Part shown: positions 609 to 12,982 of the stretch, one piece after another
Layout: each line of letters begins with the position of its first letter
Position numbering within the stretch: the first letter of the stretch is position 1
Origin: a virus
Length of the DNA: 20,747 nucleotides
Strand: one strand, 5' to 3'
Virus genome (UHGV): UHGV-0017034
Translations under genes and position numbers: made by a program
The notes under the pieces: generated by a model
Seen by the model: the letters and a program-made list of their open reading frames with translations, nothing else
What the model was told of the DNA's origin: nothing
The model's database searches: none

Positions 609-662
609 TATTCTTTTCCTTCTATTTTAAACAATAGGGCACATACCCGTAATTCTATTTAT

Positions 663-965
663 TTAGCGGTTGCTCAAACGTCTATAACGAAGATGAGCGA
701 TCCCCCTATTTGTGCTAACGGTAATTACCGCCCCTTGCGGTGCAATACAAGAATGAATCTGTCCCCAATCATGACCCTTATGGCTTCCAGAAACACACAA
801 ACCATGAATAAGCAATTCAGAGTCACCACCGCCACCACCGGAAGAATGAGCACAGAATGAAATAGTCCCGAAAGCGTCGGCTGTCCAACCGTTAGGAATA
901 TCAAACCATCCTTGATTTGCTTTACCCGCCCTATTCCCCAAAGCGCCATCTACCCAAAATGCCAT
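663..965 (-). CDS. Small FDIPNGW-motif protein, paralog 3 of 3 (100 aa), function unknown
   Basis: ORF; start ATG overlaps the upstream stop (TAATG); shares M-x-(F/Y)-W, FDIPNGW, Gly/His-rich core and TVS motifs with the two upstream ORFs. Confidence 0.6.
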   Translation of the reverse strand: MAFWVDGALGNRAGKANQGWFDIPNGWTADAFGTISFCAHSSGGGGGDSELLIHGLCVSGSHKGHDWGQIHSCIAPQGAVITVSTNRGIAHLRYRRLSNR

Positions 966-1270
966 TAGTGCATTCTCCTGAATTTAAAATAATGCAAACT
1001 ACCTTTACCCAATGTAAAGCTAACGGTAGCACCAGCGCCAACTAAAGAACTAGCGCCCCAACTCCCAGCATCACCAGCATGATGACCTGATTCAATCAAT
1101 CCATTTACAGCCAATTCAGAATCAAGATCACCAGCACCGTTAATGGCTTCCATATGAGCAAAAACAATTCCGCATGAATCAGTAACCCAGCCGTTGGGGA
1201 TATCAAAATATCCACCATTAGCCCAAATACTAATAGCGTTTGACATTCTTTGATTTATCCATCCAGCCAT
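965..1270 (-). CDS. Small FDIPNGW-motif protein, paralog 2 of 3 (101 aa), function unknown
   Basis: ORF; 2-nt gap to the upstream stop; YFDIPNGW, GAGDLDSEL, WG and TVSFTLG...HYFKF motifs conserved with its neighbours. Confidence 0.6.
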   Translation of the reverse strand: MAGWINQRMSNAISIWANGGYFDIPNGWVTDSCGIVFAHMEAINGAGDLDSELAVNGLIESGHHAGDAGSWGASSLVGAGATVSFTLGKGSLHYFKFRRMH

Positions 1271-1272
1271 AA

Positions 1273-1569
1273 TTAAAACTCCATGAATTTAAAATATTCA
1301 ACACCACCTTCACCCCCTAAACCAAAGGAGACGGTGCAGCCAGCAGGAACAAACGAATTTATAGTAGATCCCCAATTGGTCCCACCACGACGACGAGCAA
1401 CGGTCAAACCATCTACGTTAATATGTGCATCAGACCACCCACCACCAGCATTATGACGCATTACAGCGACACCAGCACGAGCAGTACCATAGCCGTTAGG
1501 AATATCAAATACATGCCATTTTAAAGCATCGATTTTAGTATTAATTTCACTACTTACCCAATATCCCAT
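1273..1569 (-). CDS. Small FDIPNGY-motif protein, paralog 1 of 3 (98 aa), function unknown
   Basis: ORF with AAGGA RBS 7 nt upstream; VFDIPNGY, GGGWSD, NWG and TVSFGLG...EYFKF motifs. Confidence 0.6.
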   Translation of the reverse strand: MGYWVSSEINTKIDALKWHVFDIPNGYGTARAGVAVMRHNAGGGWSDAHINVDGLTVARRRGGTNWGSTINSFVPAGCTVSFGLGGEGGVEYFKFMEF

Positions 1570-1582
1570 ATAAGAATCCTTA

Positions 1583-1600
1583 GCGGAGATTTCTCCCCGC
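1583..1600 (-). promoter_or_regulatory. Intercistronic GNRA-tetraloop hairpin between the fiber gene and the paralog triplet
   Basis: Minus-strand RNA GCGGGGA-GAAA-UCUCCGC (7-bp stem with one G-U, GAAA loop), no U-tract, immediately upstream of the paralog-1 RBS. Confidence 0.4.
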
Positions 1601-1607
1601 TTTCCAA

Positions 1608-4600
1608 TTACCCTAATTTAGCTTCAATTGCAGCAAGACGTTCACGAAGAAGTTTATTTTCTTCGCTCATTTCTTGGACCGCTTTAATTAAAAGCGCGTT
1701 CACTGCGGAGTTTGAAATTGTTAAAATTTCTTCTGGGTTATCAAAACCACCAATTTTTGCGGTTTTAACAGCTTCCGGTAATACCTCTTGTAAATCCTGT
1801 GCGATAATACCAATCTCATGACCTATAACTTCTCGGTCATTAAGAGATTTAACTTTATCGTAGGTTTTAACTTTGAGTTTATTTACCTTATCCACCGCAT
1901 TTTCTTCGTAATCTTCAACATTAATTTTCAGACGACGATCGGAACGAATATAAACATCGTTAAAGTTTCCGTTACCAGTGGCATGAAATTCTCCACTTGC
2001 ATGGAATTGATAATCAGCACCCTGAACATGAAGAACCGCTGCCGCAGTATTATTACTATCACCGGGACAATGAACGTCCATAGCAGCGATGTAGTTACGC
2101 CCCCAATCAACCGCTTTCCAAATAGCATGAGCACTATCAACGCTTTGTTGACAGTCAACCAACAAACCAGCAGGTCGGTCTCTCCATGCAACATATGCAC
2201 CACCAGAAACCTCACCACGGATAAGTCCTTGATCTGCGGCATAAGGAACACGCCCTTCCAGTTTAATCATCGCGCCCTGGAAGTGATGTGTAAATTGTCC
2301 ACCGTGGTTATTGCGAATATGTAAAATACCCTCATCTGTAGCCCAGATAACAGCCTTTTCCGTATCGCTATCATCTCTAAACCAGACGTGGCGAGCACCA
2401 GCAGAGTTTTTGATAGTAATCCCGGAAGGTCCATGCACAGTAAAAGCGCCAGCAACATCAAACATCAAACTGTTATCTGTCCTACGTTCAGTATAGAAGT
2501 GATAACCTTTGGAATCACCGACTTCCATCACTGCCGCGCGACCAACTTCTGAATTTCCCCAATTATTAATAGAGAATCGTTCAGAGCTATTATTCATCTG
2601 ATTTAGGTATAATGTACCATCAGTGAATGTTTCGCCAAAGAATCTGGTTTTAACGCCGTTAGTACCCCCCACGCGTTCAAATTCAGCCAAGAAACCTTTG
2701 GAATCTCGCATACTCAAAACGTTATTGCGTCCTGTATTACTGTTACCCCAATGGATTAATTCAATATAGTCCATTGACTGACGAGACCCTGATCTAAACA
2801 CCATATTATCTTCGATGCGGGTGCTACCATCAATTCCCAGATGTAAACAGCGTGCGGTAGCTGTGCCACCTAGATCTAATCCACCTTCGGCGAAATCATA
2901 ACTAAATGGTCTACGAGTGTTCCACGTCCCAAAGGAATCTTTTAAATCGGTAGTAAGAATATGGAAGCTAGAACCATCATTACGAAGGATTAAACCATAG
3001 TTACCACCTTTGACAGCCAAACGAGCATTTTCAGATAATGCCACTTCGCTATTCATTACAATTTTCTGGCCTCTACCGCCAGTAATATGTAATTCACCGT
3101 CTTCAATCAGGTTTATAGAGTTTTGACCGTTGTCGTTCCACCAAATAAAATCTTTGGTCTGACCATCACCGAAGCCAAACCAGCCATTACGAACATCTTG
3201 TCCAGTGCGATAATCCATGAAATTAAAATGACTTGATTCGTTTGGTCCTCGACGAATATCAATACCAGAATTTCCAGTAACACCGCCATCCAATGTTAAT
3301 TTCTTGACATGTAACCCGGATGTTGCTGACAGCAATAATTCCTGATTTGTATCTTCGTATCCAGTAGCAAGACGATATGCGTTATCATCAACTGTCTCAT
3401 GCCAGATTGTAGCTGGTGCACAACTACGGAAGCGACGCAACATCTTTTTAGCATTTGTCGGTTGTTCGTTCAAATGCTCAATGTCATATTGGCCTTGATG
3501 ATTGCCAGCAAAATTTAATGTTCCACGGTTGCTAAAGTTATTGAACGATGAAATGTTAAGAGCATCAAAAATTTCGTCTGCAACAGGTTTTTCACCACCC
3601 AGATATTCAGGAGTATCCAACAGGTTTAAAGAAACACCACCGGAAGAAACTTGATATTCTGCTAAAACAAATCCTGTATGTGCACCGTAGTAAGCGTAAA
3701 GATCGTAATTGTCGCCATCGGTTGGAATAGCGCAAAAATGTTGTTCATAATGCCAAATAGTATAATACGCATTGAATACAACACCTTTCGGGCTATTGTT
3801 GCCGCATCGAATCACCAATTCGATAATATTGGCTTGTCCATTATGTCCTACGTTATAACCGTTACCACCAACCAAACGGATCTTAGCCGTGCGACCGTGT
3901 TGTTGTGGCATTGTCAAAGTGCCTAGTTTAAACCAACCACCCTCGATACCAAAATTAAGCGTCTTCTGGAACAGTCGGTCAATTTCTGCTTTCGAATATG
4001 CGCCAATTTCAGCCGGAGTAGGTTTATCACCTTCATGATACATGCGGTGAGAATATGCCAAATGTCCCAATTCATCATAGCCGTATGTTCTTACCGTATG
4101 AACCGGATTAGACCCATAAGTGAACTCAAAACCACGAGCATGATTAACGCCGGATGGGTGCGGAACATGCAAGATCATTGCAATATGACCCGCCAGGTCA
4201 TTCATGCGGAATGCACCAAAGTAGTCAAGATTACGCGCACTCGGATCATCAAAATAGTTTGCGGTCTTAGACAGCAAATAACCATCAGTGTAAGTGTTTA
4301 CGTGCTTTTTGATGTACTTGCCATCACTCGATCCATCGGCTGCATCAATACGGCTTTCTAAACGTGCCAGTTCGGAATCAGTGTAAGACTTGTTATTGTC
4401 AACTTTGCTATGAATTGCTGTATTTTTGGCTTCAACATCACGGGTTAATGCTGCGACGTTATCCGCTGCCTCTTGCTTATTGGCTGCAATCACACCAGTA
4501 AGGTTATTGTAGGTGTCAGTTAACTGATTTTCCGCATAGGCGTGATTTGCTGCGATAGTGCGGTCAGTTTCTGCCTTAATCAAATCAACTTTGTCATTGA

Positions 4601-5132
4601 TTGTTTTGTGATTGCTTGCGATGGTTGCATCGGTACGGGATTTAATATCATCAACTTTTTTATTGATGCGGGTGTCCAGTTCCTGAGTTGCTACAGCAGC
4701 CGCAATTTTATTAGCGTTGATGGTATCCGACAATTCAGCTTTAACACCAGCAAGATCGGAAGCAGCTTTATTTTTATTGGCATCGATTGTCGCGTCGGTT
4801 TCGCGTTTAATTACATCAACTTTATTGTTAATTTCTGCATGATTTGCTGCGATAGTAGAATCAGTAGTTTGTTTAATTTCATCTACTTTAGCGTGAATAT
4901 TGCGGTCATTTACTGCAATTGTGCTATCCAATTCTTGTTTGTTAGCATCAACTTTAGATTCTAGTGCCGCGTGAGTTTCAGGAGAAACAGAGATTTGAAC
5001 TACTTCATGATCTCGGTCTTTGGTGAAAATAACATGGTCTTTAAGGTTGATTGCTACCTCACCGACCTGTAATTGTTCCGGCGTTGGTTTTTTGCCAGAA
5101 ACATTTGTTCGTTTAAATTGGATCGACTGCAT
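1608..5132 (-). CDS. Fiber protein (1174 aa) with N-terminal coiled-coil repeats and C-terminal S74 intramolecular-chaperone autoprotease domain
   Basis: Long ORF with GAGGTGA RBS; residues ~50-260 are ~22-aa repeats (D-x-T-I-A-A-N-H...K-V-D-x-I-K); internal GYHFYTERRTDNSLMFDV resembles the P2 gpH / T4 gp37-type distal fiber region as recalled; C-terminus SDRRLKINVEDYEENAVDKVNKLKVKTYDK...LLRERLAAIEAKLG matches the S74 chaperone domain of endosialidase / T5 L-shaped fiber type. Confidence 0.85.
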   Translation of the reverse strand: MQSIQFKRTNVSGKKPTPEQLQVGEVAINLKDHVIFTKDRDHEVVQISVSPETHAALESKVDANKQELDSTIAVNDRNIHAKVDEIKQTTDSTIAANHAEINNKVDVIKRETDATIDANKNKAASDLAGVKAELSDTINANKIAAAVATQELDTRINKKVDDIKSRTDATIASNHKTINDKVDLIKAETDRTIAANHAYAENQLTDTYNNLTGVIAANKQEAADNVAALTRDVEAKNTAIHSKVDNNKSYTDSELARLESRIDAADGSSDGKYIKKHVNTYTDGYLLSKTANYFDDPSARNLDYFGAFRMNDLAGHIAMILHVPHPSGVNHARGFEFTYGSNPVHTVRTYGYDELGHLAYSHRMYHEGDKPTPAEIGAYSKAEIDRLFQKTLNFGIEGGWFKLGTLTMPQQHGRTAKIRLVGGNGYNVGHNGQANIIELVIRCGNNSPKGVVFNAYYTIWHYEQHFCAIPTDGDNYDLYAYYGAHTGFVLAEYQVSSGGVSLNLLDTPEYLGGEKPVADEIFDALNISSFNNFSNRGTLNFAGNHQGQYDIEHLNEQPTNAKKMLRRFRSCAPATIWHETVDDNAYRLATGYEDTNQELLLSATSGLHVKKLTLDGGVTGNSGIDIRRGPNESSHFNFMDYRTGQDVRNGWFGFGDGQTKDFIWWNDNGQNSINLIEDGELHITGGRGQKIVMNSEVALSENARLAVKGGNYGLILRNDGSSFHILTTDLKDSFGTWNTRRPFSYDFAEGGLDLGGTATARCLHLGIDGSTRIEDNMVFRSGSRQSMDYIELIHWGNSNTGRNNVLSMRDSKGFLAEFERVGGTNGVKTRFFGETFTDGTLYLNQMNNSSERFSINNWGNSEVGRAAVMEVGDSKGYHFYTERRTDNSLMFDVAGAFTVHGPSGITIKNSAGARHVWFRDDSDTEKAVIWATDEGILHIRNNHGGQFTHHFQGAMIKLEGRVPYAADQGLIRGEVSGGAYVAWRDRPAGLLVDCQQSVDSAHAIWKAVDWGRNYIAAMDVHCPGDSNNTAAAVLHVQGADYQFHASGEFHATGNGNFNDVYIRSDRRLKINVEDYEENAVDKVNKLKVKTYDKVKSLNDREVIGHEIGIIAQDLQEVLPEAVKTAKIGGFDNPEEILTISNSAVNALLIKAVQEMSEENKLLRERLAAIEAKLG
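1611..1943 (-). other. S74-type intramolecular chaperone domain (C-terminal ~111 aa of the fiber), predicted to be auto-cleaved
   Basis: Domain begins at SDRRLKINVED, with the conserved Ser-Asp-Arg-Arg-Leu-Lys start and a terminal coiled coil. Confidence 0.65.
4355..4985 (-). repeat. In-frame ~66-nt (22-aa) tandem repeats encoding the fiber coiled-coil shaft
   Basis: Successive units DSTIAANHAEINNKVDVIKRET, DATIASNHKTINDKVDLIKAET, DRTIAANHAYAENQL and others, read from the translation. Confidence 0.6.
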
Positions 5133-6775: not shown

Positions 6776-6803
6776 AAAAAAGCCCCACCGTTAGGCAGGG
6801 CTA
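6776..6803 (-). terminator. Rho-independent terminator downstream of the capsid gene (partial terminator raising capsid stoichiometry)
   Basis: Minus-strand RNA AGCCCUGCC-UAAC-GGUGGGGCU (9-bp stem with two G-U) followed by UUUUUUG. Confidence 0.65.
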
Positions 6804-6936: not shown

Positions 6937-8943
6937 TCATTCAGCGGAGATGTGAAGAACTTTCAGAGCTTCCGGCTGGGTTACAACGTAATCCAGATCT
7001 ACCCAGATACGCGGAACGATAGCAGACTGTGCGCGGTAGGTAGTGTCATCAATGTCAAGTTCCAGACCACCCCATTCACCGATGGTAATAGCGTCGAACG
7101 ATCCCAGAACGATGTGGTCTACCGGAATAACACCAGAAGTAACTACGTCGTAACCAGCCAGTTTACCGTTTTCGATGATATAACCGGAAACACCGTTATC
7201 TTTCAGGGTAGATTCCAGTTCAGCAGCAGTTGCACCGCTCATTGCAAACTTGATCGCCTGAGCAGGAACGCCAGCGTCGGTCAGTTTAGCAATTTCTTTC
7301 AGGAAGTCTTTATAAGAGAAAGCAGCTTTCTTCTCTACGCGACCAGCATCTACCAGTTGTTTAATCACACCAGCCGGACCACGAGCATTTTCTTTATCAG
7401 ACAGAATCAGTTGTTCCAGTTTGATGCGAACAGCCTGGTTAATGTGATCAGTGATCAGAGTAGCGATGCCGGGTACGGTTTTTAGGCTCGCTCTGCTGAG
7501 CGGATTCCCACCAGCAAACGTCTTAGGAGACAGTTTCACGTTTGCAAATTCAGCTTTACCTTCCGGCGCAGCACCGTTTTCATCAACGAAGCCGAAAGAT
7601 TCAACGCTGGAAGCGGTCATTTTAGGAATAGCGGTCGGCGAAGTCAGACCAGACAGGACTTTCACACCAAGACGACCCAGAACGGATTCCGGCAACAGCA
7701 TCGCTACATAGGAATCATTCAGCAGTTTTTCGTCGGTTACAGCGGTCAGAGTAGCTTTGGTGTTACCATCAGCAGCAGCACGCATAGCAGCAGTCGGAAC
7801 GAATACAGAGCCACCGCGAGCAGCACGACCACGCTGCATAGTTGCAGTAGCAGCCATTGCAGAAAACTCGGCTTCGTGAGCACCCAGAGCTTCACCATCT
7901 ACCAGAGAGCGAATTACGTTGTTCAGGTCAAAAGTTTTTTCCATTTTAGAGTCCTTAATTTGTTGTTCGTTATTACGTTGAGCATTGACGAGATTATTTA
8001 GTGCCTTAGTGCGGAATGCTTCCGGCGTCATATCTTTAACTGCCAATGCGCGTTCTAATTCTTCGTCGTTAATATTTAGCTCGCGTGCAATTTCGCGAAT
8101 TTCTAATTCGTCTTCTTCGGAACGTTCAGCCACTTCCTCGATTTTTTCTTCTTCATCCGGAGCGGCTTCACGTTCTTCTTTTACTTCTTCTGCTTCCCGA
8201 ACAGTTGAACTATCATCATCAACACTTTCAGGATGTTCAGCGTCTTTTCCGTCTTCGAGATTTTCATCTTCTTTATTCTCTTCAACTTGGCGCTCTTGAG
8301 TTTCTTCAACTTCCGATTCTTTATTTTCTTCTACCGGAGCTTCTTCAACCGGAGCGGATTCTTGTTCTTCTTTGATTTCTTCGATTTGTTCTTTAGTCAT
8401 ATCGCGTTTAGCCTCCAAATTAACTGTGATAGTATTTAGAGAGCGATTTAAACCGACCGAATCGTCCGCCGGGACCGTCACAAATGAAATTTCGTGCGGA
8501 ATCCATTTAGAAACAATGAGTTGCGATTTAGCGTAATCGATGTGATATTCTTTAATGTCATAGCCGACAGAAATTTTTTCCATCGTACCTTCAATAACTT
8601 TATTACGAATATCATTAGCCAAAGTGCCATGTTTAGAGAATTTAACCAGAGCACGGCCTACGTTATCCGCATCGATTCGAGCGTCGCAGACTACACCTAA
8701 ATGATTATCGAAAATATGATTGAACAGCAACGGAGCGTTATTATTCAGACGAGACAGATCAACCGCTTCCGGTGTATGTACCAGAATTTCATCTAATACC
8801 ACCATTTCTTGATTTTGCTCATCCCAAAATTGGCGCTGATAAGGCTGTGTACTTGAGAAAGCAATTTCAAATTCGTATTGATCGTTATGCCCTTCGTTAA
8901 TAACTCCACCGTAACCGTTAAGATCGCGGCGAAATTTAAGCAT
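6937..8943 (-). CDS. Prohead protease - scaffold (delta domain) - HK97-fold major capsid protein encoded as one 668-aa ORF
   Basis: N-terminus has HK97-type protease motifs (PLLFNHIFDNHLG with His, KISVGYDI with Ser, HEISFVTVPADD); residues ~180-330 are an acidic coiled-coil linker; C-terminal ~340 aa has major-capsid character; AAGGTGA RBS. Confidence 0.85.
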   Translation of the reverse strand: MLKFRRDLNGYGGVINEGHNDQYEFEIAFSSTQPYQRQFWDEQNQEMVVLDEILVHTPEAVDLSRLNNNAPLLFNHIFDNHLGVVCDARIDADNVGRALVKFSKHGTLANDIRNKVIEGTMEKISVGYDIKEYHIDYAKSQLIVSKWIPHEISFVTVPADDSVGLNRSLNTITVNLEAKRDMTKEQIEEIKEEQESAPVEEAPVEENKESEVEETQERQVEENKEDENLEDGKDAEHPESVDDDSSTVREAEEVKEEREAAPDEEEKIEEVAERSEEDELEIREIARELNINDEELERALAVKDMTPEAFRTKALNNLVNAQRNNEQQIKDSKMEKTFDLNNVIRSLVDGEALGAHEAEFSAMAATATMQRGRAARGGSVFVPTAAMRAAADGNTKATLTAVTDEKLLNDSYVAMLLPESVLGRLGVKVLSGLTSPTAIPKMTASSVESFGFVDENGAAPEGKAEFANVKLSPKTFAGGNPLSRASLKTVPGIATLITDHINQAVRIKLEQLILSDKENARGPAGVIKQLVDAGRVEKKAAFSYKDFLKEIAKLTDAGVPAQAIKFAMSGATAAELESTLKDNGVSGYIIENGKLAGYDVVTSGVIPVDHIVLGSFDAITIGEWGGLELDIDDTTYRAQSAIVPRIWVDLDYVVTQPEALKVLHISAE

Positions 8944-8963
8944 TTAATCACCTTTAATTAATT

Positions 8964-8980
8964 GGGGGCATTGCGCCCCC
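8964..8980 (-). promoter_or_regulatory. GC hairpin between portal and capsid genes
   Basis: GGGGGC-N5-GCCCCC (6-bp GC stem), no U-tract, immediately upstream of the capsid RBS. Confidence 0.35.
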
Positions 8981-8988
8981 GTTGGTTA

Positions 8989-10500
8989 TTAGGGATCGGC
9001 TGGGGAATTTTTTTCTTCACCCTCGCCATCAACGATAATATTTAGTGCGCTCTTTTCGGCTTGAATCTCTGAGAATACTTTTTCAGGATCATCACCACGT
9101 TCAAGAATAACGGCAGTACGTGATTTAAGTCCTTTATCAATTAAAGCAATCTCGGCGCTTACGTCTTTAAATGGATCGACGGATTCAAAACGCGGACGAA
9201 TAATAGTTGTATTATCGATAATATGTGGAATTGCAGTAATACGAATCGGAACAATACCACGCGCGGAATAATGGCGTAGATATGCTTCGAAAATTGGCAA
9301 TACCACGGTTTCAATCAATTTGTTTTGCAGTGCTTTAACGCGCGTTCTTTGAAGTAATTCGCCGTAGCGTGCGGCGCTGTAATTTATTTGGCTAGTATCG
9401 CCAGTTAAGCCCTGATTGAACACGCCAAGACCCATCGCTATACTCGTGAACATACCAGCGTTAAAGGAATTGAAATCATCGCCGCTTTGCGTGGATTGAA
9501 TACTCTTGATCGTTGCCCCTTCCGGTAATTCCTGAATAGTACCTGGCGCGAAATCGTGAATAACTTCCGGCGCTTGATATTGTTCATCATCTTCACCAGT
9601 ATCAAAATCGTCACCAGAATCTTTCGGACGCTCGATGAACGCCATGCTACTAGCTGAAATTCGTTTCTGGACCAATACAGCTTCGCGGAATGCGTCTTGA
9701 TGTGCGATATCCTTAATCACTGGCAGGAAGTCAGTCACACCACGCAGAGATTCAGCCGCAAGTGGTTGATAATAATGACATACTTGCGAAGCATCTACGC
9801 GATAGTTATCACCTGTGTAAGTCTGAGTCAGTAGGTTGATTTTACGAAACCAGTATGCTACGGGCTTCATCGTCTCTACGTCATACTCCACACCTTGATA
9901 TATCGCACGGTCTTTGCTTACTTCACGGTTTAGCGACCAGTCGCATTTATCAGCAGACAGGATAGAAACATTTAACTCATTGTTTTCTTTGGTTAAAACG
10001 ATGAAGCACTCACCACCCATAACGCGCTCACGTTCAGCCATTACCAGCAGTTCACGGAAGTTAAAGCGACCGTTACGAGAGAAGCGTTTAGCATTCTGCG
10101 CCCACTTCCAGAAAGCATTCTCGATCTGCTTATTCAGTGCGCTATCAAGTTTGCCATTTGATTTAACGATTGATGGCTTCGGATCTAGGCCAGTACCAAC
10201 CACCATATCGGTGATGTATTGCGTGTAGCGACTGCCTACGGAAGTGTTTAAGGCCAGAGTACGACCCTGATCATAAAGGCGCTTACCGTTCGATTTGAGA
10301 GCCTTATTGAAGGTTCCTGTAATGGTGTCTTGTTGAAGTGATCCATCAATGCGATCACCAACCAGACCTAAACTACGTTTAGATAGGTCTTTCTGGAATT
10401 TTTCTACTTGCTTATCGATGAAAATTTTTGGTTGTTGCTGGCGGTGATTAGTTTTAACTGGAGTTTCTACCGCCTTTTTGCGTCGAAAAAGATTAAACAT
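8989..10500 (-). CDS. Portal protein (503 aa)
   Basis: Size, position between terminase and protease/capsid, acidic C-terminal tail; AAGGGG RBS overlapping the stop of the upstream gene. Confidence 0.75.
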   Translation of the reverse strand: MFNLFRRKKAVETPVKTNHRQQQPKIFIDKQVEKFQKDLSKRSLGLVGDRIDGSLQQDTITGTFNKALKSNGKRLYDQGRTLALNTSVGSRYTQYITDMVVGTGLDPKPSIVKSNGKLDSALNKQIENAFWKWAQNAKRFSRNGRFNFRELLVMAERERVMGGECFIVLTKENNELNVSILSADKCDWSLNREVSKDRAIYQGVEYDVETMKPVAYWFRKINLLTQTYTGDNYRVDASQVCHYYQPLAAESLRGVTDFLPVIKDIAHQDAFREAVLVQKRISASSMAFIERPKDSGDDFDTGEDDEQYQAPEVIHDFAPGTIQELPEGATIKSIQSTQSGDDFNSFNAGMFTSIAMGLGVFNQGLTGDTSQINYSAARYGELLQRTRVKALQNKLIETVVLPIFEAYLRHYSARGIVPIRITAIPHIIDNTTIIRPRFESVDPFKDVSAEIALIDKGLKSRTAVILERGDDPEKVFSEIQAEKSALNIIVDGEGEEKNSPADP

Positions 10501-10510
10501 GATTTACCCC

Positions 10511-11005
10511 TTATCGCGTAAGACGTAATTTGATATTTTTAATCGGGCTAATTCCCTGTTTACGTCGTTCGGCTTGAATTAATTTTGATAACTGACGTTC
10601 ATAATCAACTTTTAGAGTCTGGAGAACACCCAATGACTCATAAACGAAAGTATTCCCTTTCACTGTCATTTGAGATAATGCGGCTTCGTCCCCAGATAAA
10701 CGGGCGAAAATAACTTGTTCCAAAATGGCGATAGTTTCCCGCAGATATTCTTTTTTGGATTGTTTGGCGAATACTGGCAAAACAGTTAATTCCTGCATTG
10801 ATACCAGTTCTTCTTCAAAAGTTATTACGATGGTATATTTACCTTCGGCAAAATCTAAGGTTTTAATCTCATGATTAGCCGGAGTATCATCAACCTGATA
10901 AATGATACCTTTACTATTTCCTACCTGAATTGTTACACCCTCTTCATTCGCCAGCGTGATTTTTTCACCTTTACGAATTACTAAGGGAATTAGTTCTAAA
11001 CTCAT
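10511..11005 (-). CDS. Hypothetical protein (164 aa) with a gpW-like (head-tail joining) C-terminal half
   Basis: ORF with AAGGGG RBS; sits between large terminase and portal, where lambda W lies; C-terminal LRETIAILEQ...GNTFVYESLGVLQTLKVDYERQL loosely matches the gpW helix-strand-strand-helix pattern. Confidence 0.4.
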   Translation of the reverse strand: MSLELIPLVIRKGEKITLANEEGVTIQVGNSKGIIYQVDDTPANHEIKTLDFAEGKYTIVITFEEELVSMQELTVLPVFAKQSKKEYLRETIAILEQVIFARLSGDEAALSQMTVKGNTFVYESLGVLQTLKVDYERQLSKLIQAERRKQGISPIKNIKLRLTR

Positions 11006-11077: not shown

Positions 11078-12982
11078 TTAGAACGATGTTATCCAGCTAC
11101 GGCCTCTATTTGGACGTCTGACGATGTTTTGACGTTGTGGTCGTGTGATTGGCTTAGTTTCTTCTATTTGCTCGTTAGATTGCGATTTAGGAGCTTTTAC
11201 GGGTTCTTCGACAACACGGTTTAAGCTGTCTTTCATTGCAATGAGTTTATCCCATGACATTTTTGAAAGAACGTAGCGAGAAGCCGCTGTAGCATACACT
11301 GCGCAGTCGAGCGCCTCGTTCCTAACGCCTGGGTTCTTTACCCATCTCACGCCAGTAGTAGTACGCTTGACAGATTCACTTAAAAGCTGATCGAGATAAT
11401 CATCAGGAACGGTTCCTGATATTTCTAAGCTAATGTGAGGATTGTCTTTCAGGTTTCTAACCAACATTTCACGAAATGCAGTTTTACCCACGTTAACACC
11501 CAACATAAGCAATTCATGACCACCTGTGCGGGTAGGTTTAACCGGAATGATCGGAGCGTTACCAGCAGAACTACCTTTGATAGCGTGTAAGTTCTTCCAC
11601 TTGCCGCAAATACGGTATCCAGCTTGAGTGAATCGACCGTTCGATGTATCAAGGAAGCTGGCGAGCATAGGAACACGATCACCCGATACAGTAGTAAATT
11701 TGGTTTTATGGAAGTTGATTAATCTATCCCATACAGGGGATTCATATCGTTCACAGTTATGATCGTAAAAGCTGCGATGATCCAGAATATAAATCTTATC
11801 CTTTGCCACGCCCATGATTGTAGTTTCTGCGCGATCTAATTGCTGGTCAGTACCCGCACACAAGAAAATCACGTCATCAGGGATATTCTCGATAGAAACA
11901 TCTGTTTTTAGTTGTTCCAGTTCATTTGCTTCTACTGCCGTGTCCTGATCGTCGTATACCTTGCCTAACACGGTGTTATAAAATGATTGTAAATCAAAGG
12001 ATTGCCACGCATGACTAAAATCAACCACACAAGCGCGGATCGTGCTGAAAGGTGAATACAGACGGCTGATCCAGAATCCTGCTACCTCACTTTCACGGGT
12101 TGCTCTCCACTCTCCTTGTGCCACCGCCCTGATCCGCTCTCCTTCTGTCCATGCGTTCTTACAGTGGGGGCAAATATAACGAGCGGTATCAGGATCGGGT
12201 AAGTTCTTACCATCAATGTTACGCCATTCAAACTGTACGTTTTCCCACTCGATCACCTGGTGTCTACCGCAATGAGGACACGGAACAAAAAACATACGCA
12301 TATCGCTTGATAACCATTGCTGGTTAATGCTTCCGAGCTTACTGGTCGGGGTACTGGATACGACTAATCGGCCTTCATCGCCAAAGGTAGTTAAACGGTT
12401 AGCAGCCAGTGCCACCGGATCACCTTCTTCTGAGGCTGTAGCAGCATCGATTTCGTCAAGCAGTCCGACCTTTGCTGTCTTACCGCGTAGGGTTGATGGA
12501 CTAGTAAGCGATACCATATAAAGGAAGTGGTTTGATTTGAGCTGGAGCTGATTGTTGTTATTAACAGAATTGCGATCATTCTTGTCTGTAACCACGTCTT
12601 TTAATGCATCACATGCTTCGATAGACGGTCGGATCTTACCCGCGAGATATTGAGACATTTCTTTAGCGGTTGATTGTCCGATAATCATATTGCATGGATC
12701 GTTAGCCATCTGGTTAAATAGGATGCCGTTCAAGATGGTAGTCTTTCCGATCTGCGCACTGGTCATCAGAACATACTTTTTCTTGTTCTCAAGGAAAGGA
12801 GCATCAATCATACCTTTCTGGAATGACAGCAATTTAACTTTATCCCCAGCTTGAGGACCATCTACCAGCACCATATTCGCTTCGCACCATTCAGAAGGAA
12901 GGAGCTTAGGCGGTGGCGTAATATATTTGGCTGCATTTTTGAGAATCTTTTTTAATTTGGCCTTATTTGAAATCAGTTTCAT
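11078..12982 (-). CDS. terL: Terminase large subunit, lambda GpA family (634 aa)
   Basis: Walker A-like [10 protein letters not shown]; motifs matching lambda gpA as recalled ([11 protein letters not shown] vs LTAGIDSQLDR; [11 protein letters not shown] vs RRNEALDCFVYA; CPHCG...YICPHC zinc-finger-like pairs); GAGGGT RBS. Confidence 0.9.

What the first reader, a model, noticed from the sequence alone, without database searches (positions are those of the whole stretch)
6937..8943. Prohead protease, scaffold and major capsid protein fused in one reading frame
HK97-type protease motifs, an acidic coiled-coil scaffold-like linker and a major capsid C-terminal domain are all in one 668-aa ORF with no internal start or frameshift signal. 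This implies the protease is delivered on every capsid subunit and removes itself and the scaffold. Fusions of this kind exist but are not the usual arrangement, so this is a compact assembly solution worth confirming.
Basis: partly seen in the sequence, partly recalled or inferred. Interest (0 to 1): 0.45.

Follow-up and report, generated by a model that had tools for sequence, protein, structure and literature searches.

The report
Fused protease-scaffold-capsid gene with inner start
This E. coli prophage gene really does join the head-maturation protease, a scaffold segment and the major capsid protein in one reading frame, which is a common and already catalogued arrangement, but a conserved internal ribosome-binding site suggests most capsid subunits are made without the protease.

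Summary
The 668-aa ORF (6937..8943, minus strand) is real and is not an assembly artefact. More than 120 distinct near-identical proteins of 667-670 aa carry both domains, and about 55 complete E. coli genomes hold a matching region. It has four parts:
- An S78 (HK97 gp4-type) protease, aa 21-168. His76 and Ser125 align to gp4 H65 and S114.
- A disordered acidic linker, aa 169-270.
- A helical scaffold-like domain, aa 271-395.
- An HK97-fold capsid domain, aa ~396-668.

The architecture is already known. [quoted passage not shown] It is widespread in prophages of many phyla. In the homologue R4C, the solved capsid chain is only the C-terminal 268 residues.

An in-frame ATG at Met182 follows a GGAGG motif 11 nt upstream, just after the protease domain. 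An equivalent ATG with a Shine-Dalgarno-like motif occurs in 65 of 66 non-redundant relatives (pairing-energy test p ~1e-20; synonymous-codon resampling p 3e-7).

The likely result is two nested products, protease-scaffold-capsid and scaffold-capsid, as with lambda C/Nu3 or herpesvirus UL26/UL26.5. So the protease is probably not on every subunit. This is an ordinary member of a known kind, with a modestly interesting inferred expression strategy that I could not find described.

The parts
6937..8943 (-). Full ORF, 668 aa (73.5 kDa, pI 4.6): protease, acidic linker, helical scaffold-like domain and HK97-fold capsid protein. The stop codon is 6937..6939.
   Evidence: RefSeq annotates the same 2007-nt CDS in E. 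coli PK8568.
8947..8955 (-). Ribosome-binding site of the full-length product (AAAGGTGAT, 3 nt before the ATG).
   Evidence: Sequence read. Function is inferred.
8440..8883 (-). Prohead serine protease domain (aa 21-168; Pfam S78 match aa 40-162). Putative catalytic His76 (8716..8718) and Ser125 (8569..8571), plus invariant Glu151 (8491..8493).
   Evidence: Pfam above the gathering score. AF2 pLDDT is 88-98. H76, S125 and E151 are invariant in 121 diverse fusions. hhalign places H76 on HK97 gp4 H65 and S125 on S114. dN/dS is 0.15.
8412..8416 (-). Internal Shine-Dalgarno-like motif GGAGG, 11 nt upstream of Met182.
   Evidence: Duplex energy with the anti-SD is -9.3 kcal/mol. It is retained as GGAGG (28) or GGGGG (5) in 33 close copies.
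8398..8400 (-). Putative internal in-frame start codon, Met182. The predicted product is aa 182-668 (487 aa, 52.9 kDa): scaffold plus capsid without the protease.
   Evidence: An equivalent SD+ATG is present in 65 of 66 non-redundant relatives. Translation from it is inferred, not shown.
8134..8439 (-). Acidic, predicted disordered linker (aa 169-270; 42 D+E, 12 K+R).
   Evidence: AF2 pLDDT is below 50. Composition is. dN/dS is about 0.9 with a very low dS.
7759..8133 (-). Helical scaffold-like (delta-domain-like) segment, aa 271-395. Boundaries are approximate.
   Evidence: AF2 helices 276-288, 293-301, 307-337, 340-349 and 355-370, with pLDDT 83-97. No Pfam family matches it. The scaffold role is inferred from its position and from HK97 gp5.
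7942..7944 (-). Second, weaker candidate internal start, Met334 (upstream AAGGA). The product would be 335 aa (35.3 kDa).
   Evidence: -5.8 kcal/mol. An SD-bearing equivalent exists only in the closest clade, and the family-wide Met at this position has no SD. Low confidence.
6940..7758 (-). HK97-fold major capsid domain (aa ~396-668; Pfam Phage_capsid aa 410-664). The mature N-terminus is not determined and lies at or before about aa 404.
8963..8981 (-). GC-rich hairpin (GGGGGC-GCAAU-GCCCCC) between the portal gene and this ORF, with no T-run on the coding strand.
   Evidence: HK97 has a putative terminator annotated at the analogous portal/protease junction. Function is unknown.
6781..6802 (-). 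Terminator-like hairpin followed by TTTTTT, about 135 nt downstream of the ORF stop.
   Evidence: HK97 has a putative terminator right after gp5.

Best explanation
This is the head-assembly gene of a temperate E. coli/Shigella siphophage-type prophage. The surrounding order is large terminase, W-like head-tail joining protein, lambda-family portal, then this gene. One reading frame encodes an HK97 gp4-type (S78) serine protease, a disordered acidic linker, a helical scaffold-like domain and an HK97-fold capsid protein.

I propose that it is expressed as two nested in-frame products. The full-length 73.5-kDa protease-scaffold-capsid protein starts at the first ATG. A 52.9-kDa scaffold-capsid protein starts at Met182, which has its own GGAGG ribosome-binding site.

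Both products would co-assemble on the portal through their identical scaffold and capsid parts. The covalent link would place a limited number of protease domains inside the procapsid. It would replace the C-terminal targeting tail that free HK97 gp4 uses. The protease would then cut away itself, the linker and the scaffold domain, leaving a capsid subunit of about 28-29 kDa that expands and is filled with DNA.

Shown here: the domain composition, intact catalytic residues, the conserved architecture and the conserved SD+ATG. Shown in a homologue: only the C-terminal capsid domain is present in the solved mature capsid. Inferred: use of the internal start, the ratio of the two products, the cleavage sites and the scaffold role of aa 271-395.

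For: Protease: H76, S125 and E151 are invariant in 121 diverse fusions. H76 aligns to gp4 H65 and S125 to S114. The protease domain is under purifying selection, dN/dS 0.15.

Real gene.

Processing: the R4C capsid chain is gp6 residues 362-629 only.

Nested start in this window: GGAGG lies 11 nt before Met182 and pairs at -9.3 kcal/mol, the strongest of the 12 in-frame ATGs of the ORF.

Nested start in 66 non-redundant relatives from many phyla:
- In 65, the first in-frame ATG lies 18-106 codons after the E.S.V..PAD motif (median for all 66: 37). The exception, L075, has it at codon 154.
- Median anti-SD pairing is -5.6 kcal/mol. It is -2.2 for 872 other in-frame ATGs and -2.2 for 8383 other linker positions (Mann-Whitney p 9e-21 and 6e-20).
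- An SD core at 5-12 nt spacing is present in 54 of 66.
- Pairing is stronger than synonymous-codon resampling predicts (-5.77 vs -4.07, p 2.6e-7), whereas other ATGs show SD avoidance.
- The amino acids upstream of the Met are not conserved.
Against: No expression data exist for this or any related gene in what I could search, so translation from Met182 is an inference.

The 11-nt spacing in this window is at the long end of the functional range. Five of 33 close copies have GGGGG instead of GGAGG.

The linker is Lys/Glu-rich, so AAGGA-type motifs arise easily. The composition-matched and synonymous controls reduce this concern but do not eliminate it. A conserved internal Met in the capsid domain (window position ~550) also shows moderately SD-like upstream codons that come from conserved residues, so such patterns can arise without being starts.

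One lineage (L075 group) has no start codon for about 150 codons after the protease.

The protease match to HK97 gp4 is weak (hhalign probability 9%). TIGR01543 is below its cut-off. No solved protease structure was recovered by sequence search or seen in the listed fold-search hits.
Confidence: 0.7

Rival explanations
1. Obligate polyprotein. Only the full-length 668-aa protein is made, every capsid subunit carries its own protease, and the SD+ATG after the protease is a relic of an ancestral gene boundary or a by-product of the Lys/Glu/Gly-rich sequence.
For: There is a single uninterrupted frame. The L075 lineage lacks any start codon for about 150 codons after the protease, yet keeps the fusion. 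SD-like motifs can arise from conserved residues. Annotators call a single CDS.
Against: A relic should have decayed in proteins that are only 23-30% identical with unalignable linkers. Instead, 65 of 66 lineages keep an ATG, mostly with an SD-like motif at proper spacing. Codon choice favours the SD beyond what the amino acids require. On established knowledge of HK97, far fewer proteases than capsid subunits are packed into each procapsid, so one protease per subunit would crowd the interior. This last point is an argument, not a test.
Confidence: 0.2
2. Three nested products. Besides Met1 and Met182, Met334 (AAGGA 7 nt upstream) starts a 35-kDa capsid protein with only a short N-terminal extension. 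Under this model the ORF is a fused protease-scaffold gene plus capsid gene that kept both old starts.
For: Met334 has the second-best SD pairing in the ORF (-5.8). The five closest lineages (window, DCP80, L070, L071, L075) all have an ATG with pairing of -5.2 or better at the equivalent place. In L075 it is the first ATG after the protease.
Against: Across the wider family, the Met at this alignment position sits in a conserved 'IGM[TS][DE]' motif with no SD (energies near 0). The AAGGA here comes from a conserved Lys-Asp dipeptide. A capsid protein lacking the scaffold domain might not assemble.
Confidence: 0.2
3. Artefact or decaying pseudogene. Under this reading, two genes were joined by a sequencing or assembly error, or the prophage is defective and the fusion is non-functional.
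For: The window is a metagenome contig. One related IMG/VR copy is broken at aa 393.
Against: The 120 listed independent near-identical proteins, and 32 of 33 viral contigs, keep the same 666-670-aa frame. Complete genomes agree. Purifying selection acts on the protease, helical and capsid domains. Isolated, viable phages (R4C, phiHAP-1, RcCronus, FoX2, ep3, Arya, Mica, Persinger) match the query on both sides of the linker within one annotated capsid gene.
Confidence: 0.01

Closest known systems
[quoted passage not shown]
   Same: The order is the same: S78 protease, then a linker/scaffold, then an HK97-fold capsid in one ORF after the portal gene. There is a full-length PHROG 617 match. [quoted passage not shown]
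   Different: The score against NF045541 is 125 bits against a cut-off of 525, so this is a different sub-lineage. None of the papers I could read mentions an internal start.
Dinoroseobacter phage vB_DshS-R4C gp6 (capsid structure PDB 8GTA; PMC10276861)
   Same: It has the same fused architecture (629 aa), 29% identity, the same module order (terminase, head-tail joining protein, portal, fused gene), and its own GGAGG+ATG right after the protease. It is the best structural match.
   Different: Its linker is Pro/Ala-rich rather than acidic, and its host is an alphaproteobacterium. The paper's main text has no occurrence of 'protease', 'cleav-' or 'truncat-'.
HK97 gp4 (protease) and gp5 (delta domain plus capsid)
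   Same: The protease family and catalytic His/Ser spacing match (H65/S114 against H76/S125, 49 residues apart in both). The capsid fold matches. Both have an N-terminal scaffold-like domain on the capsid protein that is removed by the protease. Hairpins sit before the protease gene and after the capsid gene in both.
   Different: HK97 has two separate genes, and its protease is targeted non-covalently. Here the stop codon between them is absent. The HK97 crosslink residues are not conserved here: K169 aligns to A459, N356 to S640 and E363 to W647.
Nested in-frame protease-scaffold / scaffold genes: lambda C/Nu3, Mu I/Z, herpesvirus UL26/UL26.5
   Same: The logic is the same: a minor long product carries the protease and a more abundant short product starts in-frame downstream, so the protease co-assembles by sharing the scaffold. 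For herpesviruses, PMC11565193 reports full-length transcripts about 10-fold lower than scaffold transcripts. The lambda and Mu cases rest on my own knowledge.
   Different: In those systems the capsid protein is a separate gene. Here the nested products would both extend through the capsid protein. The herpes and lambda proteases also belong to other families (S21, S49).

Membership tests
Peptidase S78 (HK97 gp4-type prohead protease) | Match to Pfam PF04586 above its gathering score | tested here: met
   37.1 bits against a cut-off of 21, over aa 40-162.
Peptidase S78 (HK97 gp4-type prohead protease) | Catalytic His and Ser equivalent to HK97 gp4 H65 and S114 (the residue identities come from my knowledge of the HK97 literature) | tested here: met
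   hhalign places H76 on H65 and S125 on S114. Both are invariant in 121 diverse fusions.
Peptidase S78 (HK97 gp4-type prohead protease) | NCBIfam TIGR01543 equivalog cut-off | tested here: not met
   31.2 bits against a cut-off of 59. The protein is a distant member of the Pfam family, not an HK97 gp4 equivalog.
Peptidase S78 (HK97 gp4-type prohead protease) | Proteolytic activity on the capsid precursor | not testable with these tools
   It is only implied by the C-terminal-only capsid chain of the homologue R4C.
HK97-fold major capsid protein (Pfam PF05065) | Profile match above the gathering score, and an HK97 fold | tested here: met
HK97-fold major capsid protein (Pfam PF05065) | HK97-type isopeptide chainmail residues (K169, N356, E363) | tested here: not met
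   The aligned residues are A459, S640 and W647. This rests on a profile alignment, so reliability is moderate.
Protease-capsid fusion proteins (NCBIfam NF045541, PHROG 617/4523) | Protease and capsid domains in one ORF, conserved in relatives | tested here: met
Protease-capsid fusion proteins (NCBIfam NF045541, PHROG 617/4523) | NF045541 curated cut-off | tested here: not met
   124.9 bits against 525, and only aa 22-346 are matched. The architecture is the same but the sub-family differs.
Nested in-frame protease-scaffold / scaffold gene pairs (lambda C/Nu3 type) | In-frame start codon with a ribosome-binding site just downstream of the protease domain | tested here: met
   Met182 with GGAGG at 11 nt.
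Nested in-frame protease-scaffold / scaffold gene pairs (lambda C/Nu3 type) | The internal start is conserved beyond chance in relatives | tested here: met
   65 of 66 lineages, p about 1e-20 against two controls. The synonymous-resampling test gives p 2.6e-7.
Nested in-frame protease-scaffold / scaffold gene pairs (lambda C/Nu3 type) | The shorter protein is actually made, and in excess | not testable with these tools
   This needs Ribo-seq, western blotting or N-terminal proteomics.

The most novel reading that the evidence does not exclude
Fused protease-scaffold-capsid genes, which are common in prophages across bacterial phyla, may be two-product genes as a rule. A conserved internal ribosome-binding site just after the protease domain would yield a protease-less scaffold-capsid protein that sets the protease:capsid ratio. 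This would extend the lambda C/Nu3 and herpesvirus UL26/UL26.5 strategy to the capsid protein itself.
Probability: 0.35. Interest if true: 0.55.

Novelty: new member of a known kind. Interest (0 to 1): 0.35.

Why it matters
The fusion itself is ordinary and already has names in NCBIfam, PHROGs and SEA-PHAGES. Near-identical proteins are annotated in dozens of complete E. coli and Shigella genomes, and in hundreds of contigs overall.

The useful point is a correction. The conserved internal start suggests that the covalent link is a targeting device for a minority of subunits, while the bulk of the shell is built from a shorter nested product.

If confirmed, this would:
- add a missing CDS to many phage and prophage annotations;
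- explain how these phages control protease dosage without a separate protease gene;
- strengthen the parallel between phage and herpesvirus capsid-maturation modules.

It is directly testable in E. coli.

Tried and rejected
- Single-sequence AlphaFold gave an unusable model (mean pLDDT 39). It was replaced by the alignment-based run.
- A sequence search of the PDB with the protease domain alone found nothing. The listed hits of both fold searches were all capsid proteins, so the protease fold was not confirmed against a solved structure.
- The search for related loci with the 121-sequence alignment failed because no stretch was conserved enough. A 14-sequence alignment worked.
- A DNA-level search of the phage collection with the ORF found no match, so relatives among isolated phages are visible only at protein level.
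- Literature searches for an internal start in capsid-protease fusions found nothing.
- Two possibly relevant papers could not be opened: Liu & Mushegian 2004, and an HFTV1 ribosome-profiling preprint.
- The Stx2-phage, Cluster J, 7-7-1 and CBASS papers turned out not to concern capsid-protease fusions.
- Met334 as a family-wide second start was rejected. The conserved Met at that position lacks an SD outside the closest clade.
- A cluster of SD-like ATGs at window position ~550 was traced to a conserved T[WY]xExVxxME motif and is not a start.
- I considered the very low synonymous divergence of the linker as a sign of an RNA element. GAA/AAA codon bias in a Glu/Lys-rich segment is a simpler partial explanation, so I left it open.
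Full report
**1. The observation**

The window holds one uninterrupted ORF at exactly 6937..8943 on the minus strand, 668 aa, starting at the first possible start codon after an upstream stop. A plausible ribosome-binding site, AAAGGTGAT, ends 3 nt before the ATG.

Profile searches support both end domains above curated thresholds:
- Pfam Peptidase_S78 matches aa 40-162 (37.1 bits, gathering score 21).
- Pfam Phage_capsid matches aa 410-664 (79.1 bits, gathering score 24.2).

PHROG 617 ('major head protein', a 626-position profile) matches end to end. PHROG 4523 is literally named 'major head and protease protein'. The segment between the two domains is strongly acidic.

**2. It is not an artefact**

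- The window is a metagenome contig, but the 120 listed distinct proteins at 95-100% identity, mostly from E. coli and Shigella, are all 667-670 aa and carry both Pfam domains.
- The surrounding 7.8 kb matches 55 of 5426 complete E. coli genomes. In 27 of them at least 80% is covered, at 92-94% nt identity. RefSeq annotates the same 2007-nt CDS as 'phage major capsid protein'.
- Of 33 IMG/VR copies, 32 keep the frame.
- Among 32 of these copies, dN/dS is 0.15 for the protease domain, 0.31 for the helical domain and 0.23 for the capsid domain. All three folded parts are therefore under purifying selection.

**3. Context**

The gene sits in a typical head module read on the minus strand:
- large terminase candidate (11078..12982; RefSeq annotates the homologous gene as 'terminase gpA endonuclease subunit');
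- a head-tail joining (W-like) protein (10511..11005);
- a lambda-family portal (8989..10500; TIGR01539 209.6 bits against a cut-off of 172.7);
- this gene;
- head-tail attachment and tail tube candidates.

In E. coli PK8568 the element continues with a tail fibre, tail tube, a probable tape-measure gene and a tail tip protein, and it lies in the chromosome as a prophage.

**4. Anatomy**

An AlphaFold model built on an alignment of 121 diverse fusions has mean pLDDT 82.5 and divides the protein into four parts:

| Part | Residues | pLDDT |
|---|---|---|
| Beta-rich protease domain | 21-168 | 88-98 |
| Disordered acidic linker | 169-270 | below 50 |
| Helical segment (helices 276-288, 293-301, 307-337, 340-349, 355-370) | 271-~395 | 83-97 |
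| HK97-fold domain | ~405-668 | above 90 |

The helical domain occupies the place of the HK97 delta (scaffold) domain.

- A profile alignment to HK97 gp5 has probability 94.8%.
- The HK97 crosslinking residues are not conserved. K169, N356 and E363 align to A459, S640 and W647.

**5. The protease**

Across the 121 diverse fusions only seven columns are invariant, and they include His76, Ser125 and Glu151.

A profile alignment to HK97 gp4 is weak overall (probability 9%). It nevertheless places His76 on gp4 His65 and Ser125 on gp4 Ser114, which are the catalytic residues as I know them from the HK97 literature. The 49-residue spacing is identical in both proteins, and 'HEISFVTVPAD' aligns to 'REISVCTFPAN'.

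The NCBIfam equivalog model TIGR01543 is below its cut-off (31 against 59 bits). No solved protease was recovered by sequence search or seen in the listed fold-search hits. I therefore file this domain as a distant member of Pfam S78, not as an HK97 gp4 equivalog.

**6. Fate of the N-terminal part**

The closest solved structure is the capsid of roseophage R4C. Its gene 6 has the same fused architecture (629 aa, 29% identity) and the same neighbours.

The deposited capsid chain (8gta_A, 268 residues) corresponds to gp6 residues 362-629. I established this by an exact match of a 38-residue stretch and by the chain length. So at most the C-terminal ~270 residues are ordered in the mature shell.

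The R4C paper's main text has no occurrence of 'protease', 'cleav-' or 'truncat-'. By alignment, the mature subunit here would start at or before about aa 404, giving roughly 28-29 kDa. The exact cleavage sites are unknown.

**7. The internal start**

There is one.

Met182 (ATG 8398..8400) lies 31 codons after the invariant Glu151, in the disordered region just after the protease domain. It is preceded by GGAGG (8412..8416) at 11 nt. Its predicted pairing with the 16S anti-SD (-9.3 kcal/mol) is the strongest of all 12 in-frame ATGs of the ORF.

The same feature appeared in the first divergent relatives I read:
- DCP80 (45% identity): AAGGA, then ATG, at the same alignment column.
- R4C (29% identity): GGAGG, 5 nt, then ATG.
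- Several IMG/VR lineages also show it.

I then tested this systematically. I collected the window, DCP80, R4C, 17 IMG/VR loci and 80 loci from species-representative genomes of many phyla. Removing redundancy left 66 genes. The results were:
- In 65, the first in-frame ATG lies 18-106 codons after the conserved E.S.V..PAD motif, and in 62 of 66 it lies 27-62 codons after it (median 37).
- Its upstream pairing energy has a median of -5.6 kcal/mol. The median is -2.2 for 872 other in-frame ATGs of the same ORFs, and -2.2 for 8383 other codon positions of the same linkers.
- Pairing is -5 or stronger in 72% of candidates, against 13% and 15.5% of the two controls (Mann-Whitney p 9e-21 and 6e-20).
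- A recognisable SD core is present in 54 of 66, at 5-12 nt spacing with a mode of 7-8.
- The residue after the Met is Pro, Thr, Glu, Lys, Asn, Ser, Asp or Ala in 65 of 66.
- The amino acids upstream of the Met are not conserved.
- Resampling synonymous codons shows that the observed codons pair better than the amino-acid sequence requires (-5.77 against -4.07, Wilcoxon p 2.6e-7). Other in-frame ATGs show the opposite, which is SD avoidance.
- Mapped on an alignment, strong-SD ATGs cluster in the linker. There they are at least as SD-endowed as the annotated gene starts.

**8. Caveats**

- The linker is Lys/Glu/Gly-rich, which favours AAGGA-like strings.
- A conserved Met inside the capsid domain (position ~550) also has moderately SD-like upstream codons that come from conserved residues. 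Such signals can therefore arise without being starts.
- One lineage (L075 group) has a Met-free acidic linker. Its first ATG comes 154 codons after the motif, with AAGGA upstream.
- In the window and its four closest lineages, a second ATG with a weaker SD exists (Met334 here). The family-wide Met at that column has no SD. I treat it as a low-confidence extra.
- No expression data were available.

**9. Mechanism proposed**

I propose two nested in-frame products: protease-scaffold-capsid (73.5 kDa) and scaffold-capsid (52.9 kDa). Both carry the same helical scaffold-like domain and capsid domain, and so would co-assemble.

The covalent link delivers a limited number of protease domains to the procapsid interior. 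This replaces the non-covalent C-terminal targeting tail of free HK97 gp4, a point that rests on my knowledge of the HK97 literature. The disordered acidic tether gives the protease reach. Proteolysis then removes the protease, the tether and the scaffold domain.

This is the logic of lambda C/Nu3, Mu I/Z and herpesvirus UL26/UL26.5. For the herpesvirus case, a paper I read reports the long transcript at about 10-fold lower level than the scaffold transcript (PMC11565193).

I give the obligate-polyprotein model about 0.2.

**10. Comparison with what is known, and novelty**

The fused architecture is catalogued and common:
- NCBIfam NF045541 is 'prohead protease/major capsid protein fusion protein'. 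This protein scores 125 bits against a cut-off of 525, so it belongs to another sub-lineage.
- PHROGs 617 and 4523 cover it.
[quoted passage not shown] One preprint describes a protease, scaffold and capsid triple fusion in five actinobacteriophage clusters.
- All but one of the best 150 representatives of 50%-identity clusters are of fused length, 562-893 aa.
- At least 575 of the first 600 motif hits in GTDB species genomes are relatives.

The object is thus a new member of a known kind.

I did not find the nested start described for capsid-protease fusions in ten literature searches (among them).

**11. Verdict**

The interpretation needs correcting on one point, the internal start. That point is a modestly interesting, directly testable hypothesis about how these phages dose their protease.

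Noticed in passing
window 647..5132 (minus-strand ORFs 1608..5132, 1273..1569, 965..1270, 663..965): The 1174-aa tail-fibre gene shares 79-94% nucleotide identity with long-tail-fibre distal-subunit genes of T-even phages (KFS-EC, RB3, JE01). In G37-3 the match also covers part of the small ORFs downstream of it. The rest of the element is a lambda-portal/HK97-capsid type temperate prophage. This looks like recent exchange of a receptor-binding module between very different phage types.
   Followed up: partly
L001 (GenBank PQ671644.1, Escherichia phage DCP80) 1..16000: This 141-kb record is filed under Straboviridae/Gaprivervirus. It begins with a terminase, 486-nt gene, 1.5-kb portal-position gene and fused-capsid gene in the same order as the prophage in this window, and all but the terminase are annotated 'hypothetical protein'. 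It may be a chimeric assembly or an unusual hybrid genome.
   Followed up: no
window 6781..6802 (-) and 8963..8981 (-): A terminator-like hairpin with a T-run lies about 135 nt after the capsid ORF. A GC-rich hairpin without a T-run lies between the portal gene and the ORF. HK97 has putative terminators annotated at both analogous junctions. The 190-nt gap after the ORF is otherwise unexplained.
   Followed up: partly
window 8134..8460 (aa 161-270 of the ORF): Among 32 E. coli-clade copies, synonymous differences drop to about 0-0.03 per codon here, against mostly 0.05-0.28 in the rest of the ORF; aa 1-70 is also low. dS is 0.033 against 0.16-0.33, while amino-acid changes continue (dN/dS about 0.9). 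Strong GAA/AAA codon bias in a Glu/Lys-rich segment may explain part of this. Constraint on the mRNA around the internal start, or a separate recombination history, remains possible.
   Followed up: partly
L036 / L068 (IMGVR_UViG_2877285697_000006): In this one related viral contig, the fused ORF is interrupted after 393 aa. The cause is a frameshift, a stop codon or an assembly error.
   Followed up: no
window 7942..7944 (Met334) and equivalents in L001, L070, L071, L075: A second in-frame ATG with an AAGGA-type motif lies ahead of the 'FDL..V.RSL' helix. It is conserved with an SD only in the closest clade. In the L075 group, which lacks the first internal start, it is the first ATG after the protease.
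   Followed up: partly
window 6940..7758 (capsid domain): The residues that form the HK97 isopeptide chainmail (K169, N356, E363) align to Ala459, Ser640 and Trp647. No decoration-protein gene is evident between the capsid gene and the head-tail attachment gene, so how this capsid is stabilised is open.
   Followed up: no
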